From NCBI RefSeq assembly GCF_006345805.1, contig NW_021824105.1:1-19556 (forward strand): a stretch of DNA of 19,556 nucleotides, written 5' to 3'. Shown here piece by piece: positions 8,562-17,103 of the stretch (its first letter is position 1; each line of letters begins with the position of its first letter). The notes under the pieces are model-generated. The model was not told where the DNA came from. It saw only the letters and a list, made by a program, of their open reading frames with translations, and did not search any database. Origin of the DNA: Octopus sinensis (Eukaryota). A program made the translations under genes and the position numbers.

Positions 8562-8962
8562 TACTCTTTTACTCTTTTACTCTTTTACTTGTTTCAGTCA
8601 TTTGACTGCGGCCATGCTGGAGCACCACCTTTAATCGAGCAACTCGACCCCGGGACTTATTCTTTTGTAAGCCCAGTACTTATTCAATCGGTCTCTTTTG
8701 CCGAATCGCTAAGTAACGGGGACGTAAACACACCAGCATCGGTTGTCAAGCAATGCTAGTGGGACAAACACAGACACACAAACACACACACGCACATATA
8801 TATATACACATATATACGACGGGCTTCTTTCAGTTTCCGTCTACCAAATCCACTCACAAGGCTTTGGTCGGCCCGATGCTATAGTAGAAGATACTTGCCC
8901 AAGATGCCACGCAGTGGGACTGAACCCGGAACCATGTGGTTGGTAAACAAGCTACTTACCAC
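8562..8962 (-). mobile_element. SINE family A, copy 3 (truncated within the A-box)
   Basis: (TACTCTTT)n tail at the left. Homology stops at CTACTTACCAC. Confidence 0.92.
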
Positions 8963-9049
8963 TTACCAAAATATCTATTGCAAACATTGAATACATGAAA
9001 ATTAATTACCAAAATTTCTAATGCCTCACCAAAAGACAAAAAAAAAAAT

Positions 9050-9284: not shown

Positions 9285-9550
9285 ATGTTTTGACTGTATG
9301 TATTGGATGTATTTTCCTCTGTCCGTGTAAGTGGTGGTTTATATACACATATATATGTATTTGTTTATTTCCGTAACCCTGCCTTCGTCTTTTGTCTATT
9401 TTCATAAAGCTTCCCGTTATATATAGTCTCTCAGCGCGCCAGAACCAAGACGTTTGAAATTTTATTCCCGATGTAATCGGTAAGACTAAGCACGTGTCTG
9501 TCTTGACACAGAGAGCTGGGGTTAGTCTTGCGGTTTGCATCACGAGGACC

Positions 9551-9628
9551 GAATGTACTGAAGAAGTCACGGACACTTGAATTATGCAAGTAATTCTTTT
9601 GTTAAGACCGAAACCGAGGTATGCATTT
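9551..9628 (+). ncRNA. Type I hammerhead ribozyme, predicted cleavage after GUA (9621)
   Basis: Stem I GAATGTA(9551-57)/TGCATTT(9622-28); core CTGAAGA 9558-64; stem II GTC/GAC capped by hairpin GAATTA/TAATTC; GAAAC 9610-14; loop CGAG; GTA 9619-21. Confidence 0.78.
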
Positions 9629-9896
9629 AAGTCTGTTATTTATTTAATTTTTCATATGTCCTGCCCGCCAAAGTTGGTTCTGGTGTTCGCTGAATTCTTC
9701 CTCTAGAGAATTTCCCTTGTAGTTTGTATCGTTGATGATCTTCTTCTAGCATTCTGGCCGGCTACCTAGCAGGCCAGCCCTGCCAATATACACATATATT
9801 TGAATTTTCTCTGACTCCTCAGATTTTTTGAATGCTGGACTACTGGTTTTAAATTGATATTAAAATTAATATTAATTATCTCCCTCAATTTTTAAA

Positions 9897-10260
9897 ATAT
9901 ATACATATATTATATATATATATATACGTGTTTTAGATATATATGTGAATGTATACGTGTATATACGTAAATGTATATAAATACATACATATATATGTAC
10001 GTATTACATGTTATACATATATGTTTGTGTCTGCGTCTGTGTATATTTATGTATATGTGGGCTTGTAATTACACATATGTGCAAAAACCTGTATACAAAC
10101 GTTTGCTTGTATATATGTATATACATGCGTGTAATATATATTATATATATATATAATATATACACATGTATATATATACATGTGTGTAGGTATGTATGCA
10201 TGTATGTATGTATTTATGTATGTATGTAATGTATGTATGTATGTATGTATCTATCTATCT

Positions 10261-13349: not shown

Positions 13350-15945
13350 GAAAGGAAGCGGTTGGAATCTCTCCATGTCCTGATTGATGATACATCTAGT
13401 GCTGGTGTCACAATAAAAACACTGATAATTGTGCAACCTGATAATCGCTTCCTCATATGAGTTACAATGAAAATACATATTATTGTGAATAGCGGTAGCA
13501 ATGAAACTGAAGCTCCTGATGGTGACAGTGTTCCACCCGGCAGTCTCGGAAATACTTGTCCGGCTCCAGCCTGTTGTTATTCGCAATGGATTAGCATACT
13601 CGGCGTAGATGGAACAATGCCGTGGTCATAGAGTGTTACTACCTGAGCAACCCTGTAGACGAAAATAGTGCTCTTATTAGAGGATACCGACAACGTATGT
13701 ATGATCAATGGAAAGAAAGGGGATTGTTTCAACTCACGGAACAGAGATTATGTGGTCAAGCTAGAGCAATACGAAAAAATCGTTGGTTCACAGAAGTAGA
13801 GTTCGAAGTTATCAAAAAAACGGGTCTTGGAAAATAGCAGCAGAGGAAACGATGAAAATATAGTTCTTACTGATAGCAGAATCTCATAGCAGAAAACAGA
13901 GGTGAGATCTCTAATAAACCAGAGAAAAGGAACAGTGATGGCTTTCTCGATGAGAGACATATAAATGGTCTGGAAGACGACAATGAAACTCATGGTGATA
14001 TGACAGATGGGCGAAAGGCAATCTATGACAGAATAAAGGCAAGCTTATAGGAGAACGATAGTGACATTATTTGCAACGTTAAAAAGGTTTATCGGTGGAA
14101 ATTGAACCAAGAAACGAAAAATGTAAATGAAATTCTGAAATACATCAGAACGAAAAACATCACAGACACAAATACTTTGATCAAGATATAGAAATATAAG
14201 GGGGGTGTCAAAAGAAAAGATTCATGGTGGAAAAGAAGAATAGAGATAGGGTTAGATATGCTCTCGAAGGACATTTGTGTGTTAGACTGAAAAGAGAAGG
14301 GAAGCTTAAAAGCGAACAGAAATACAGGTCATTGAACTGTAAATACGATAGTGAAAGAAAGGGCCTGAAATTGGCAATGGAGGAACTGAAACAGCGCCTC
14401 ATCGCAAAGAAAGCAAAGATGGTAAGATACCACCAAAGAATGAAAGGATACCAGCAGAATAGGTTATTTAGAGTAGATCAGAAGAAATTCTACAAAGAAA
14501 TAAATGAAGAGTGAAAAGATAAAATGTTGATACCAGATAACATTGAAAGTCAAAGGTTTTGGAATGACATTTGGAGCAAAGACAAGAACAACAAGAAGGA
14601 TGCTGAAAGGTTGCAAGAACTGAAACAAACAGTAGTCTGTCCAAAACAGACAGAACTAGCAATTTCAGATAGAGAAGTGAAGGAAATCAGCAAAAAATAG
14701 GCAACTGTAAGGCCTCGGGACCAGATGGAGTTCAAGGTTACTGATCAAAAGATTTGGTGAATGTCATACATGAATAGCTGCCCAACTCAACACCTCATTA
14801 AATGCCGACCAAGTAACACCAGAGTGGTTCAAGCACAGTGCTGTGCTTGAAAAACATAGAAAAATGCAATACGGTAGACAATTACAGGCCGATATCCTAC
14901 TTGCCACTTATGTGGAACATTATTGACTAGAATAGTCGCAGAGACAATATACGGATATCTGGTAAAACTGGAGTCCTTCCACACGAGCAGAAAAGTTACA
15001 AGCGTAAGTGCAGAGGTACCAAGGATCAACTCCTGGTAGACAAAACTGTACTTAGAGACTGCAAGAGGAGGAAAAGTAACTTAACCATGTCATAGATAGA
15101 TTATCGTAAGGCATACTATATGATTCCAAGTTCTTGGATTATGAAATGTATGAACCGATTTGGTATTGCATCGAATGTTGAGCGATTGCTTGGAAAATGT
15201 ATGGCGAAGTGGAGGACGGAGCTGACAGCATATGGAAGATGTTTAGGAACAATAGAAATCAGTAGAATAATTTTCAAAGGAGACTGCCCGTCCCCACTGA
15301 TCTTTGTACTATGCATGACACCACTAGCACTGATTCTGAGGAAAGCAAAAGCTGGGTATGTATTCAAGTGCCGTCAACAAAAAGTCAACCACTTGTTATT
15401 CATGGGTGACCACAGACTTTATTGTAAAAATGAATTCCAAGTCAGTTCCCTCGTTGATAGGGTGTATACTTTCAGTGCTGATATCAGAATGGAGTTCGGA
15501 CTGAGAAAGTGTGGTGTGTTAGTCTTGAAGAGAAGCAAAATTAAATGTGTGGACGGGCTAGCGAAACCGTCGGCGGAGGTTAGGAAGCAAATAGAAGAGA
15601 CGGGTTATAAGTACCTGGGGATAATGGAAATGGATAAATTGATAGAGAAAGAAATGACAGGAAAATTTAAAGTGGAGTACTTGCGCGGACTGAGTCTGAT
15701 CCTTAAGTCCAAATTAAATGGACGGAATAAGATTGAAACTATCAACACCTGGGCGGTTTCACTCTTTAGATGTAGAGAAGGGGTAATCGCATGGACAGTA
15801 GAGGAACTAAACAGCTTAGTCAGAAAGACAAGTATCTTGCTGACAAGACATGGGATACTCCACCCAAAAAGTGACACAGACAGACTGTATGTACCAAGAA
15901 AAAGAGGGGGAAGAGGACTGATTGGATGCGAACACAGTATTATAA
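13350..15945 (+). mobile_element. Decayed R4-clade (Dong-like) non-LTR retrotransposon, 3' part (zinc knuckle/endonuclease) missing
   Basis: Single long broken ORF from ~13468, with no APE domain seen before the RT. 5' boundary approximate, directly after (TAA)n. Confidence 0.85.
13468..15945 (+). pseudogene. Non-LTR reverse transcriptase pseudogene
   Basis: [24 protein letters not shown]; YQQNRLF; KASGPDGVQGY; NYRPI; [11 protein letters not shown]; DYRKAY; IFKGDCPSPLIF; HLLFMGD (from FMDD); FGLRKC; YKYLG; RLYVPRKRGGRGL. Many stops and frameshifts. Confidence 0.92.
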
Positions 15946-15965
15946 TAAACACAGTATAATAATAA

Positions 15966-16236: not shown

Positions 16237-16795
16237 TAAAATTGTTGTGACGATGATGACACCGACGTCAACGACAATGACGACGATGGCCATGTTGATT
16301 GTGATATTGGTGACGATGACGACGCTTCTGCTGCGGCTCAGGAATGATGAAGACGACGGCTATAACGGCGATGGTGACCACCACGGTGACGACGGCAACC
16401 AGGGTGACGAAGGCACTGAAAACTTTGAAGACAACGGAGACGACTTCGACGACGACAACAATATTTGAAGATATGTTTCTTTATTAGCCACACAGGGCTG
16501 CAGACAGACAGGACAAATTACAAGGTAGAGGTTTTCTTTTGGGGGTAAAAAAAAGAGGGTTTAGTTTTCGATCAAAAGGGATCGTAAAAGGAGAGAAAGA
16601 GGACAAAAAAAAGGGGGGGATAAAAAATGAAGATAACAGCTACAATGAGGATGCCAACGATGCCGCCGATGCTGCTGCTGCTGATGATGATGGTGATGAC
16701 GCCGACGAGTAATATTTGAAGACAACGACTACAATGATGTTGCCGACGACGCTGACAACGACTACAACGACGACGATGATGATGACGACGACGAT

Positions 16796-16826
<31 letters not shown>

Positions 16827-16875
16827 ACGATGCTGATGACGATGCTGATGACGATGATGATGATGATGATGAAGT

Positions 16876-16907
<32 letters not shown>

Positions 16908-17015
16908 GTGACGGTGGTGGTGGTGGTGATGAGGATGGTGATGATGTTGATGATGATGCTGATGACGATGATGATGATGATGGTGTGATGATGACGATCA
17001 TGATGATGATGGTGA

Positions 17016-17047
<32 letters not shown>

Positions 17048-17103
17048 ATGAAGATGATGATGATGTTGATGGTAGTAGTAGTAGTAGTAGTATTTATTAT
17101 TAC
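16180..17103. repeat. Long compound trinucleotide tract (AAT, GAC/GAT, GCT, GGT, GTA)
   Basis: Seen directly. Interrupted by 16470-16625. Confidence 0.95.
16470..16625 (-). mobile_element. Retroposon 3'-end fragment sharing its terminus with SINE B tail type 1
   Basis: Minus TTTGTCCTGTCTGTCTGCAGCCCTGTGTGGCTAATAAAGAAACA versus SINE B TTTGTCCCCTCTATGTTTAGCCCCTTGTGGGTAGTAAAGAAATA. Confidence 0.55.

What the first reader, a model, noticed from the sequence alone, without database searches (positions are those of the whole stretch)
9431..9693. ~260-nt highly structured unit enclosing an apparently intact hammerhead (retrozyme-like monomer)
Seen: outer stem TCAGCGCGCCAGAACCAA (9431-48) with TTGGTTCTGGTGTTCGCTGA (9674-93). 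Long hairpin 9470-9541 (GATGTAA/TTGCATC, AAGACTAA/TTAGTCTT, GTGTC/GACAC). Then an HHR at 9551-9628 with 7-bp stem I, extended stem II, near-palindromic ACCGAGGT stem III and a GUA site. It lies in a ~550-bp non-coding island (~9350-9900) between microsatellites. Known: metazoan non-autonomous retrozymes are a few hundred nt long, carry type I HHRs and give circular RNAs. Inference: a solo copy of such an element, or a Penelope terminal repeat.
Basis: partly seen in the sequence, partly recalled or inferred. Interest (0 to 1): 0.72.

Follow-up and report, generated by a model that had tools for sequence, protein, structure and literature searches.

The report
Solo copy of hammerhead retrozyme repeat
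This stretch is one incomplete copy of a roughly 546-letter protein-free jumping repeat that carries a hammerhead RNA motif predicted to cut itself and was likely pasted into a TA microsatellite by enzymes borrowed from Penelope-like retrotransposons; the kind of element is already known, so it is a new family member and not a new kind.

Summary
The outer stem, the long hairpin and a type I hammerhead (CUGAAGA 9558-64, GAAA 9610-13, GUA 9619-21, 7-bp stem I) are all present. A relaxed hammerhead descriptor hits this one site in the window and nothing in 300 shuffles.

The 263-nt "unit" is only an inner domain. The real repeat unit is about 546 nt. The window holds a solo piece of less than one unit (9425 to about 9897), cut short at its 5' end and lying in a (TA)n tract.

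The family occurs as head-to-tail arrays, 5'-truncated copies and head-to-head inverted arms. It has two fixed 3' ends and scattered 5' ends, which is the Penelope-like (PLE) insertion pattern.

Three related families in the same genome (B, D, C) keep the hammerhead with compensatory changes in stems I and II: 93.8% of cells paired against 27-43% when partners are slid. Family D has a canonical core.

The window's family A has an A·C mismatch at 10.1/11.1 and a helix II of about 45 nt. No Rfam model detects any of the families.

Cleavage, circular RNA and the autonomous partner are untested or not found. Copy ends show no cleavage footprint.

Earlier notes of this scan list eight other retrozyme families in this genome. 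Verdict: new member of a known kind (metazoan non-LTR retrozymes).

The parts
9417..9424 (.). TA tract at the 5' junction (ttatatat). It is also the tail of a separate, very abundant repeat that ends at 9425.
   Evidence: (depth above 2000 for 9380-9419 in runs guessed to be RNA, with loose ends at 9425).
9425..9897 (+). Solo, 5'-truncated copy (about 473 of about 546 nt) of retrozyme-like family A.
   Evidence: 26 of 29 other loci carry 64 further family bases upstream of the 9425 equivalent. Similarity to the family ends near 9897, where the window turns into TA-rich repeat. GC is 0.39.
9431..9448 (+). 5' strand of the long-range 'outer' helix.
   Evidence: MFE fold. RNAalifold predicts 14 pairs, kept in 27 sequences of 4 families mostly through one-sided G.U-compatible changes.
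9470..9541 (+). Long hairpin (GAUGUAA/UUGCAUC and AAGACUAA/UUAGUCUU).
   Evidence: pair 62-109 is GC 13 / AU 12; pairs 63-108 and 64-107 are each AU 22 / GC 3.
9551..9557 (+). Hammerhead stem I, 5' strand (positions 2.7-2.1).
   Evidence: Three of the 7 pairs change on both sides between families.
9558..9564 (+). Core box CUGAAGA (C3-A9). Position 9562 (N7) is A in 30 and U in 8 of 38 family A copies.
9565..9609 (+). Extended helix II in three parts: base A.C, G-C, U-A, C-G; middle GACA/UGUU; distal 7 bp capped by GCAA.
   Evidence: Pair 21-64 is GC 17 / UA 11 / UG 10; pair 30-55 is AU 18 / GC 18.
9610..9613 (+). Core GAAA (G12, A13, A14, A15.1).
9613..9620 (+). Helix III, ACCGAGGU. Alone it gives 2 bp plus a tetraloop. 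It is near-palindromic, so two copies could form an 8-pair helix with tandem G.A.
   Evidence: The dimer pairing is read from the sequence and is an inference.
9619..9621 (+). GUA triplet. The cut is predicted after A9621.
   Evidence: Position in the motif. Cleavage is untested.
9622..9628 (+). Hammerhead stem I, 3' strand (positions 1.1-1.7).
9674..9693 (+). 3' strand of the outer helix. It is also where 8 of 32 family A copy 5' ends fall (unit positions 52-72).
9786..9799 (+). Internal TA-rich stretch (AUAUACACAUAUAU), used as the first of two fixed 3' ends in other copies.
   Evidence: 13 of 33 family A 3' ends at unit 172-177. One search shows a loose end of ATATAT behind 9799.
9800..9897 (+). 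Most conserved block of the unit (3' module), with an A/U hairpin at about 9851-9878. The second fixed 3' end lies at its end.
   Evidence: 0-2 majority differences per 30 columns, against 14.6% overall. (module shared with family C)..
9898..9926 (.). TA-rich microsatellite at the 3' junction.

Best explanation
Window 9425 to about 9897 is a solo, 5'-truncated copy of a non-coding repeat with a unit of about 546 nt; the repeat carries a type I hammerhead motif, is likely copied into (TA)n tracts by the reverse transcriptase and endonuclease of Penelope-like elements, and is predicted, not shown, to cut its RNA after A9621.

Shown:
- The family exists as head-to-tail arrays, 5'-truncated copies and head-to-head arms.
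- Its 3' ends fall at two fixed TA-rich sites, and its 5' ends are scattered.
- Related families B, D and C keep the three hammerhead helices through compensatory changes, and the core boxes are the same in the majority of copies of all four.
- The outer helix and the long hairpin are also kept.

Inferred:
- Arrays are transcribed into multimeric RNA.
- The hammerheads, with a weak near-palindromic helix III, act best in pairs and release unit-length RNA that a host ligase may circularise.
- A Penelope-type enzyme nicks a TA repeat, starts reverse transcription inside the RNA at one of the two TA-rich sites, and copies a variable length, sometimes switching strand to give inverted arms.
- Every multi-unit copy, and this copy too, runs through the cut site. 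The RNA used as template was therefore uncut or religated there.
- The window copy has one ribozyme and less than one unit, so it cannot itself yield a unit-length RNA or a circle.
For: Repeat family:
- 40 of 40 scored own-genome hits, the window itself among them, are 98-100% identical over the 263 nt.
- The family A hammerhead 18-mer has 178 exact sites in the genome.
- I recovered 21 complete units of 538-552 nt.

Unit and truncation: 26 of 29 loci continue 64 nt upstream of the 9425 equivalent, and 4 insertions start after (TA)n at other points.

Copy ends:
- Family A 3' ends: 13 of 33 at unit positions 172-177 and 19 of 33 at 281-293.
- Families B and D 3' ends: 24 of 69 at 169-174 and 39 of 69 at 262-285.
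- 5' ends are spread over the whole unit (32 for A, 64 for B/D).
- Inverted arms abut in 8 arrangements.

These features match the published description of PLE insertions: 5' truncation, partial tandems, an inverted 5'-truncated copy and a (TA)n bias (PMC8557442, passages).

Possible helpers: intact PLE ORFs are present (781 aa, RVT_1 plus a C-terminal GIY-YIG).

Hammerhead:
- One descriptor site in the window against 0 of 300 shuffles.
- In alignment A1 (40 rows, 4 families), 93.8% of cells are paired against 26.7-43.4% when partners are slid. 9 of 24 pairs change on both sides. 85 such cells were seen against 32.7 +/- 8.6 in shuffles (0 of 500 reach it).
- RNAalifold finds stem I and helix II on its own.
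- Stem I pair 2.5-1.5: of 30 family D rows, 28 have U at 2.5. Of the 24 of these with a readable 3' strand, 23 have A and 1 has G at 1.5. The 2 rows with A at 2.5 have U at 1.5.
- Family D has CUGAUGAG with a GGCC/GGCC helix II base.
- Canonical Rfam hammerheads of the same genome share the CUGAAGA box and a short near-palindromic helix III.

Other properties: no ORF longer than 97 aa in 3-unit concatenates, and GC 0.37-0.39. The whole unit folded as a circle gives z = -4.4 (A) and -5.0 (B).
Against: - No Rfam hammerhead model matches families A, B, C or D, even at E<=1 to 10.
- Family A has A.C at 10.1/11.1, where G-C is highly conserved in known hammerheads (PMC4209133, passage).
- Copy 5' ends do not pile up at the predicted cut: 2 of 96 lie within 3 nt, against about 1.2 expected. 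The genome therefore holds no record of cleavage.
- For a lizard PLE, uncut RNA was the main substrate and no RNA-seq reads ended at the hammerhead site (PMC11167929, passages).
- Units within an array are no more alike (97.9%, 24 pairs from 4 arrays) than units of different insertions (98.3%, 504 pairs). This does not favour read-around of one monomer circle, but the loci were chosen for likeness to the window, so the comparison is biased.
- No autonomous partner sharing sequence was found.
- Rows of A1 were picked with patterns that require the core boxes, and 8 of 30 family C loci failed them. Core invariance within A1 is therefore partly by construction.
- The number of independent compensatory events is small, roughly six to eight by my reading.
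Confidence: 0.8

Rival explanations
1. It is a piece of the terminal repeat (pLTR) of an autonomous Penelope-like element, not a separate non-autonomous family.
For: Hammerheads sit in PLE terminal repeats (PMC4209133, abstract and passages). Xenopus retrozymes resemble PLE termini (bioRxiv 10.64898/2026.07.22.740005, section 14). The genome holds many PLE ORFs: 147 GIY-YIG matches among 150 candidates scored, out of 5029 candidates.
Against: Arrays repeat every ~546 nt with no room for an ORF, and the longest open frame in 3 units is 97 aa. The 30 GIY-YIG loci (+/-1.5 kb) and 7 canonical-hammerhead loci gave only two low-complexity hits. The 3' flanks of three full PLE copies look unlike the element. 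PLEs with an N-terminal endonuclease were not examined at their 3' ends.
Confidence: 0.08
2. It is ordinary satellite DNA that carries a hammerhead and spreads by unequal crossing-over, not by retrotransposition.
For: Head-to-tail arrays of up to at least 7 units exist. Units within an array differ from one another as much as units of different loci do.
Against: The copies are dispersed over many contigs. Their 5' ends are variable, their two 3' ends are fixed, their flanks are TA repeats and some have inverted arms. These are marks of reverse transcription at a nicked target.
Confidence: 0.04
3. The hammerhead is a chance look-alike, or the 263-nt unit is a miniature DNA transposon whose terminal inverted repeats are the 'outer stem'.
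For: No Rfam match. The two arms of 18-20 nt do resemble terminal inverted repeats.
Against: 0 of 300 shuffles give a site. Covariation holds across four families. The repeat extends well beyond both arms, and I saw no target-site duplication at 9431/9693.
Confidence: 0.02

Closest known systems
Metazoan non-LTR retrozymes (Cervera and de la Pena 2020, PMC7229834; abstract and passages read)
   Same: Non-coding head-to-tail repeats with a type I hammerhead. Low GC (0.39 here; below 45-50% there). Helix III of 2 bp plus a tetraloop, as in invertebrate motifs. A mismatch at the base of helix II has a precedent in axolotl HHR_Amex2 (U.U), which cuts weakly alone and well as a dimer.
   Different: The unit of about 546 nt is longer than the 150-450 bp given there. 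Helix II is about 45 nt in three parts, where the canonical helix II is about 4 bp (PMC4209133). The cleavage triplet is GUA. RNA circles and cleavage were shown there and are untested here.
Hammerheads of Penelope-like elements (Cervera and de la Pena 2014, PMC4209133; abstract and passages read)
   Same: Short palindromic helix III suited to dimer action. Helix II larger than usual. An unpaired base at the 5' end of helix II (the A after CUGAAGA here). Compensatory changes between families within one genome.
   Different: Those motifs lie in the repeats flanking an RT-endonuclease ORF and keep G10.1-C11.1. Here I found no ORF. Family A has the extra A facing an extra C, and helix II is much longer than the 6-8 bp described there.
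PLE insertion architecture and internal initiation of reverse transcription (Craig et al. 2021, PMC8557442; Frangieh et al. 2024, PMC11167929; passages read)
   Same: 5' truncation, partial tandems, an inverted 5'-truncated copy and a (TA)n target bias. Fixed 3' ends inside the template sequence fit internal initiation.
   Different: Those papers describe autonomous elements. The link between this family and any particular PLE clade was not established here.
Rfam Hammerhead_1 (RF00163)
   Same: Same core boxes and helix order. Seven true matches elsewhere in this genome share the CUGAAGA box and the near-palindromic helix III.
   Different: This motif and its relatives score below every reporting threshold, most likely because of the long helix II.

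Membership tests
Metazoan non-LTR retrozyme | Type I hammerhead with the conserved core and three helices | tested here: met
   CUGAAGA, GAAA and GUA with stems I-III. Covariation holds in 4 families. Caveat: A.C at 10.1/11.1 in family A.
Metazoan non-LTR retrozyme | [quoted passage not shown] | tested here: met
   The period is 543-552 nt in family A and 538-544 nt in B, with arrays of up to at least 7 units. The window copy itself is solo and shorter than one unit.
Metazoan non-LTR retrozyme | No coding capacity, no LTR, low GC | tested here: met
   The longest frame in 3-unit concatenates is 97 aa, on different strands in A and B. GC is 0.37-0.39.
Metazoan non-LTR retrozyme | Self-cleavage of the transcript at the hammerhead | not testable with these tools
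   Needs a bench assay. Copy ends give no footprint: 2 of 96 5' ends lie near the site.
Metazoan non-LTR retrozyme | Expression as linear and circular unit-length RNA | not testable with these tools
   Only assembled contigs were on hand, and no raw RNA reads.
Element mobilised by Penelope-like elements | 5' truncation, partial tandems, inverted 5'-truncated arm, TA-repeat target; PLEs present in the genome | tested here: met
   Searches show the architecture. Searches show intact RT plus GIY-YIG ORFs. That these enzymes actually act on the element is inferred.
Terminal repeat (pLTR) of an autonomous Penelope-like element | Flanks an RT-endonuclease ORF | tested here: not met
   There is no ORF in the arrays. 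30 GIY-YIG loci and 3 full copies show no similarity. The sample is limited.
Rfam Hammerhead_1 / _3 / _II / HH9 / HH10 | Score at or above the family's gathering threshold | tested here: not met
   No match at gathering. None at E<=10 or E<=1 for families A, B, C and D.
Miniature inverted-repeat DNA transposon | Terminal inverted repeats at the true ends, plus a target-site duplication | tested here: not met
   The inverted arms are internal to a longer repeat. I saw no duplication at 9431/9693.

The most novel reading that the evidence does not exclude
The four sister families record selection acting on the ribozyme itself. A canonical hammerhead (family D: CUGAUGAG with a GGCC/GGCC base) lost its G10.1-C11.1 pair (B2: A.C). 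The helix was then rebuilt in two different ways: in B1 by C11.1 to U, and in A by an added U with G to A opposite it. The family with the still imperfect base (A) is the youngest and has the most intact copies. That would mean a tuned, weakened or dimer-only hammerhead spreads better than a fully active one. It would also mean that the strong outer helix around the ribozyme shapes where the reverse transcriptase stops and turns back.
Probability: 0.25. Interest if true: 0.55.

Novelty: new member of a known kind. Interest (0 to 1): 0.4.

Why it matters
The main value is as a clean worked example.

- It shows that a family of real, covariation-supported hammerheads can escape every Rfam model, even at very permissive thresholds, because of a long helix II. 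Ribozyme counts in animal genomes made with those models are therefore too low.
- The copies give a clear record of Penelope-type copying: two fixed start sites, random stops and strand turn-backs.
- Sister families with canonical, broken and differently repaired helix II bases offer a ready-made set of natural variants. They could be used to test how much self-cleavage a retrozyme needs in order to spread.

The kind of element itself is known, and this scan has noted eight other such families in the same genome.

Tried and rejected
- **Rfam scans:** no hammerhead match at gathering on the window, nor at E<=10 or E<=1 on the region or on loci of families B, C and D. The hits were microsatellite-driven miRNA look-alikes.
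- **Sequencing runs:** no RNA holder listed. All 24 runs are kept as contigs.
- **Laid contigs:** I laid contigs of 8 runs. Contigs of runs guessed to be RNA cover the element at low depth. There were no back-joints and no ends at 9621/9622. Contigs cannot show RNA ends, so this says nothing either way.
- **'Sharp 5' end at 9425':** my first reading was an artefact of using the window copy as the query. One search corrected it.
- **'Thousands of copies':** my guess from 944 first-look candidates was too high. Exact 18-mer counts are 178 (A), 87 (B) and 39 (D).
- **Autonomous partner:** blastn of A and B units against 37 loci (30 with GIY-YIG, 7 with canonical hammerheads) gave only two TA-rich hits. 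The 3' flanks of three full PLE copies are unlike the element. The ORF-like stretch beside a family C copy (L122) is an LTR-retrotransposon-like insertion.
- **RT fragment in the window (15120-15959):** unrelated to the PLE ORF.
- **Cleavage footprint in copy ends:** none.
- **Rolling-circle test by within-array against between-array identity:** inconclusive and biased.
- **Search by sequence in earlier findings of the scan:** nothing.

Full report
**What is in the window.**
- TCAGCGCGCCAGAACCAA (9431-9448) pairs with TTGGTTCTGGTGTTCGCTGA (9674-9693).
- A long hairpin spans 9470-9541.
- A type I hammerhead layout follows: stem I 9551-9557 with 9622-9628 (7 pairs, two of them G.U); CUGAAGA 9558-9564; a 45-nt helix II 9565-9609; GAAA 9610-9613; ACCGAGGU 9613-9620; GUA 9619-9621.

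The + strand of 9431-9693 folds at -81.4 kcal/mol, against -64.9 +/- 5.0 for shuffles (z = -3.3; 0 of 200 fold as well). The - strand gives z = -2.5. A relaxed hammerhead descriptor that I wrote finds exactly one site in the 19.6-kb window and none in 300 dinucleotide-preserving shuffles, although the window holds 15 CTGANGA words. The descriptor asks for CUGANGA, at least 3 of the first 4 helix II pairs, GAAA, a closed helix III, U-H and 7 stem I pairs. Against this, no Rfam hammerhead model matches, either at gathering or at E<=10 on 9300-9800. Positions 10.1/11.1 are A.C.

**It is a repeat, and the 263 nt are not its unit.** All 40 scored own-genome matches, the window itself among them, are 98-100% identical over the 263 nt. 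Several lie 543-549 nt apart. My first comparison seemed to show a sharp 5' end at 9425. That was an artefact of using the window copy as the query.

In 26 of 29 other loci, the 64 nt upstream of the 9425 equivalent are conserved family sequence that continues from the 9907 equivalent. The other three loci (L004, L016, L020) break off at other points inside it. In these three and in L014, the insertion starts right after a (TA)n tract.

I recovered 21 complete cut-site-to-cut-site units: 11 of family A (543-552 nt) and 10 of a sister family B (538-544 nt). The window therefore holds a solo piece of about 473 of about 546 nt. It starts after ttatatat (9417-9424) and ends near 9897, where TA-rich repeat begins. 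The exact family A hammerhead 18-mer occurs 178 times in the genome. The family numbers in the hundreds, not the thousands I first guessed. Three-unit concatenates have no open frame above 97 aa, and GC is 0.37-0.39.

**How the copies are built.** I made a census of copy ends in 30 family A loci and 60 B/D loci.
- 3' ends fall at two fixed places. In family A, 13 of 33 lie at unit positions 172-177 (window 9793-9798; most at 177, after AUAUACACAUAUAU, the 9799 end), and 19 of 33 at 281-293 (equivalent to window 9902-9914, just after the 3' module). In B/D, 24 of 69 lie at 169-174 and 39 of 69 at 262-285.
- 5' ends are scattered over the whole unit (32 and 64 ends).
- In 8 arrangements, an inverted 5'-truncated arm abuts a direct one head to head.

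5' truncation, partial tandems, an adjacent inverted 5'-truncated copy and a (TA)n target bias are the published signature of Penelope-like element (PLE) insertions (PMC8557442, passages). Fixed 3' ends inside the template fit the internal initiation of reverse transcription shown for a lizard PLE (PMC11167929, title and passages). The genome has many PLE genes: 147 GIY-YIG matches among 150 candidates scored, out of 5029. [quoted passage not shown]

**Is the hammerhead real?** Copies of family A are too alike to say. In the 38-47 copies covering 9545-9632, the window equals the majority at every column. Only two variants reach 4 copies: 9557 A to G (4 of 38; this keeps the pair as G.U) and 9562 A to U (8 of 38; this is the free core position N7). 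I therefore looked for diverged relatives in the same genome.
- Family B: 87 exact pattern hits, 82-88% identical to the window element.
- Family D: 39 hits.
- Family C: older, found through a variant of the 3' module (155 hits). Its hammerhead region gave 380 first-look candidates, and the 39 scored copies other than the query itself are 85-90% like it.

All have the same layout and a hammerhead at the same place.
- Family D has a canonical core, CUGAUGAG, with a GGCC/GGCC helix II base.
- Family C has CUGAAGA-GUC...GAC-GAAACCGGUC, with a palindromic ACCGGU helix III and a GUC site.
- B2 has A.C, G-C, C-G at the helix II base. B1 has A-U, G-C, C-G.
- Family A has A.C, G-C, U-A, C-G.

On an alignment of 40 rows (3 A, 6 B, 10 D, 21 C), the hammerhead structure I wrote gives these results.
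- 93.8% of cells are paired, against 26.7-43.4% when the 3' partners are slid by 1-3 columns.
- 9 of 24 pairs change on both sides.
- 85 such cells were seen, against 32.7 +/- 8.6 in shuffles (0 of 500 reach it).
- Stem I: pair 8-82 is UA 27 / AU 10; pair 9-81 is CG 18 / UA 18; pair 11-79 is UA 18 / UG 10 / CG 9.
- Helix II: pair 21-64 is GC 17 / UA 11 / UG 10; pair 30-55 is AU 18 / GC 18.

RNAalifold, given no structure, returns stem I (7 pairs), the helix II base (3), the middle (2) and the distal part (4).

Within family D, 28 of the 30 rows have U at 2.5. Of the 24 of these with a readable 3' strand, 23 have A and 1 has G at 1.5. The 2 rows with A at 2.5 have U at 1.5.

Caveats:
- Rows were found with patterns or a regular expression that demand the core boxes. 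8 of 30 family C loci failed the expression and were left out. I chose 10 of the 30 D rows by hand. Core invariance inside this alignment is therefore partly by construction. The stems are not.
- The rows are related, so the independent compensatory events number perhaps six to eight.

**The rest of the fold.** I ran RNAalifold on 27 rows covering the 9425-9705 equivalent. Of the 37 rows, I dropped 10: one near-duplicate A row, one D row left out by choice, and eight rows whose first 100 nt are truncated or rearranged.
- The outer helix is predicted with 14 pairs, kept mostly through one-sided changes such as GC 13 / GU 13.
- The long hairpin is predicted with changes on both sides: pair 62-109 is GC 13 / AU 12, and pairs 63-108 and 64-107 are each AU 22 / GC 3.
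- The apical GUGUC/GACAC of the hairpin is not conserved in family C.

As circles, whole units fold with z = -4.4 (A) and -5.0 (B) on the + strand, and -3.1 and -1.8 on the - strand. For the window motif alone, the best fold that keeps the hammerhead pairs is -12.8 kcal/mol, against an MFE of -14.5 that already contains stem I and the two outer parts of helix II.

**Comparison with known hammerheads.** The seven true Rfam Hammerhead_1 matches elsewhere in this genome read CUGAAGAG-ACCC...GGGUC-GAAACAUGUGUC. They have the same CUGAAGA box and the same short, near-palindromic helix III as here.

Published PLE hammerheads have a larger helix II, an unpaired base at the 5' end of helix II, a conserved G10.1-C11.1 pair and a palindromic 15.2-16.2/loop 3. 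They are thought to work as dimers, with low activity in vitro (PMC4209133, passages). Invertebrate retrozyme motifs have a 2-bp helix III with a tetraloop. Axolotl HHR_Amex2, with a U.U mismatch at the base of helix II, cuts 22% in an hour alone and much better as a dimer (PMC7229834, passages).

The window motif fits this picture: ACCGAGGU gives 2 bp plus a tetraloop alone, or an 8-pair helix with tandem G.A between two copies. It departs in its 45-nt three-part helix II and the A.C at 10.1/11.1. Rfam also misses families B, C and the canonical-core D. The long helix II is therefore the likely reason, more than the mismatch.

**What the DNA does not show.**
- Only 2 of 96 copy 5' ends lie within 3 nt of the predicted cut, where about 1.2 are expected.
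- Every array, and the window copy itself, runs through the site. The template RNA was continuous there. This fits either uncut multimeric transcripts (as reported for a lizard PLE, PMC11167929) or religated circles (the retrozyme model, PMC7229834).
- Units within arrays are no more alike than units of different insertions: 97.9% over 24 pairs from 4 arrays, against 98.3% over 504 pairs. The loci were chosen for likeness to the window, so I treat this as inconclusive.
- Eight of 32 family A 5' ends fall at unit positions 52-72, which is window 9673-9693, the 3' strand of the outer helix. This hints that the helix forms in the template and stops or turns the reverse transcriptase. These ends come from only about five insertions.
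- No autonomous partner sharing sequence was found.
- No raw RNA reads were on hand.

**Verdict.** The element is a new family of a known kind, metazoan non-LTR retrozymes that likely ride on Penelope-like elements (PMC7229834; bioRxiv 10.64898/2026.07.22.740005, abstract and section 14). Earlier notes of this scan list eight other such families of 352-602 nt in the same genome. Those are unchecked AI notes.

Two points are of some interest. The first is a covariation-supported hammerhead variant that no Rfam model detects. The second is a natural series of canonical, broken and differently repaired helix II bases among sister families. Self-cleavage, RNA circles and the helper element remain to be shown.

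Noticed in passing
window 9380-9425: This is the end of a different and far more abundant repeat. Summed contig depth is above 2000 in two of the four runs guessed to be RNA (322-921 in the other two), against 5-100 over the retrozyme copy. In other copies it is followed by TA repeats. The retrozyme copy sits in its short TA tail.
   Followed up: partly
window 8567-8968: Another interspersed repeat. Pieces of it lie at varying distance and orientation near family A copies in 7 of 29 other loci (L004, L019, L023, L025, L026, L029, L030), at 85-92% identity.
   Followed up: no
window 15120-15959 (+): A 279-aa open frame with the C-terminal part of an RVT_1 reverse transcriptase domain (E = 1.1e-7). 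It shows no similarity to the 781-aa PLE ORF, so it is probably a fragment of another retrotransposon class.
   Followed up: partly
window 16775-17071: A (GAT)n array of about 99 copies. The window also holds many TA, TG, AG and TAA microsatellites.
   Followed up: no
L061-L067 (own genome, e.g. C16:25146363 and C16:25146794): Seven canonical Rfam Hammerhead_1 matches of the form CUGAAGAG-ACCC..GGGUC-GAAACAUGUGUC. Two of them lie 431 nt apart on one strand, probably another retrozyme or terminal-repeat family.
   Followed up: partly
L188:5430-5480 and the matching place in L189 (reverse strand): Near the 3' end of the 781/883-aa PLE copies, just before their TA tail, lies UUGAUAAGGUUC...GGAACUGAAACAUGU. 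It looks like a hammerhead with a departed core (UUGAUAA in place of CUGAUGA), and it is conserved between two copies.
   Followed up: no
L122 (own genome C2:188243076-188246096), downstream of a family C 5' part: A family C copy is interrupted about 190 nt in. The sequence that follows has broken frames that, by eye, resemble the RNase H and integrase of an LTR retrotransposon. No family search was run on them.
   Followed up: no
family A unit positions 52-72 = window 9673-9693: 5' ends and head-to-head junctions of copies cluster on the 3' strand of the outer helix: 8 of 32 ends from about five insertions. In 6 of 8 head-to-head arrangements, the two arms end at different ones of the two fixed 3' sites.
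   Followed up: partly
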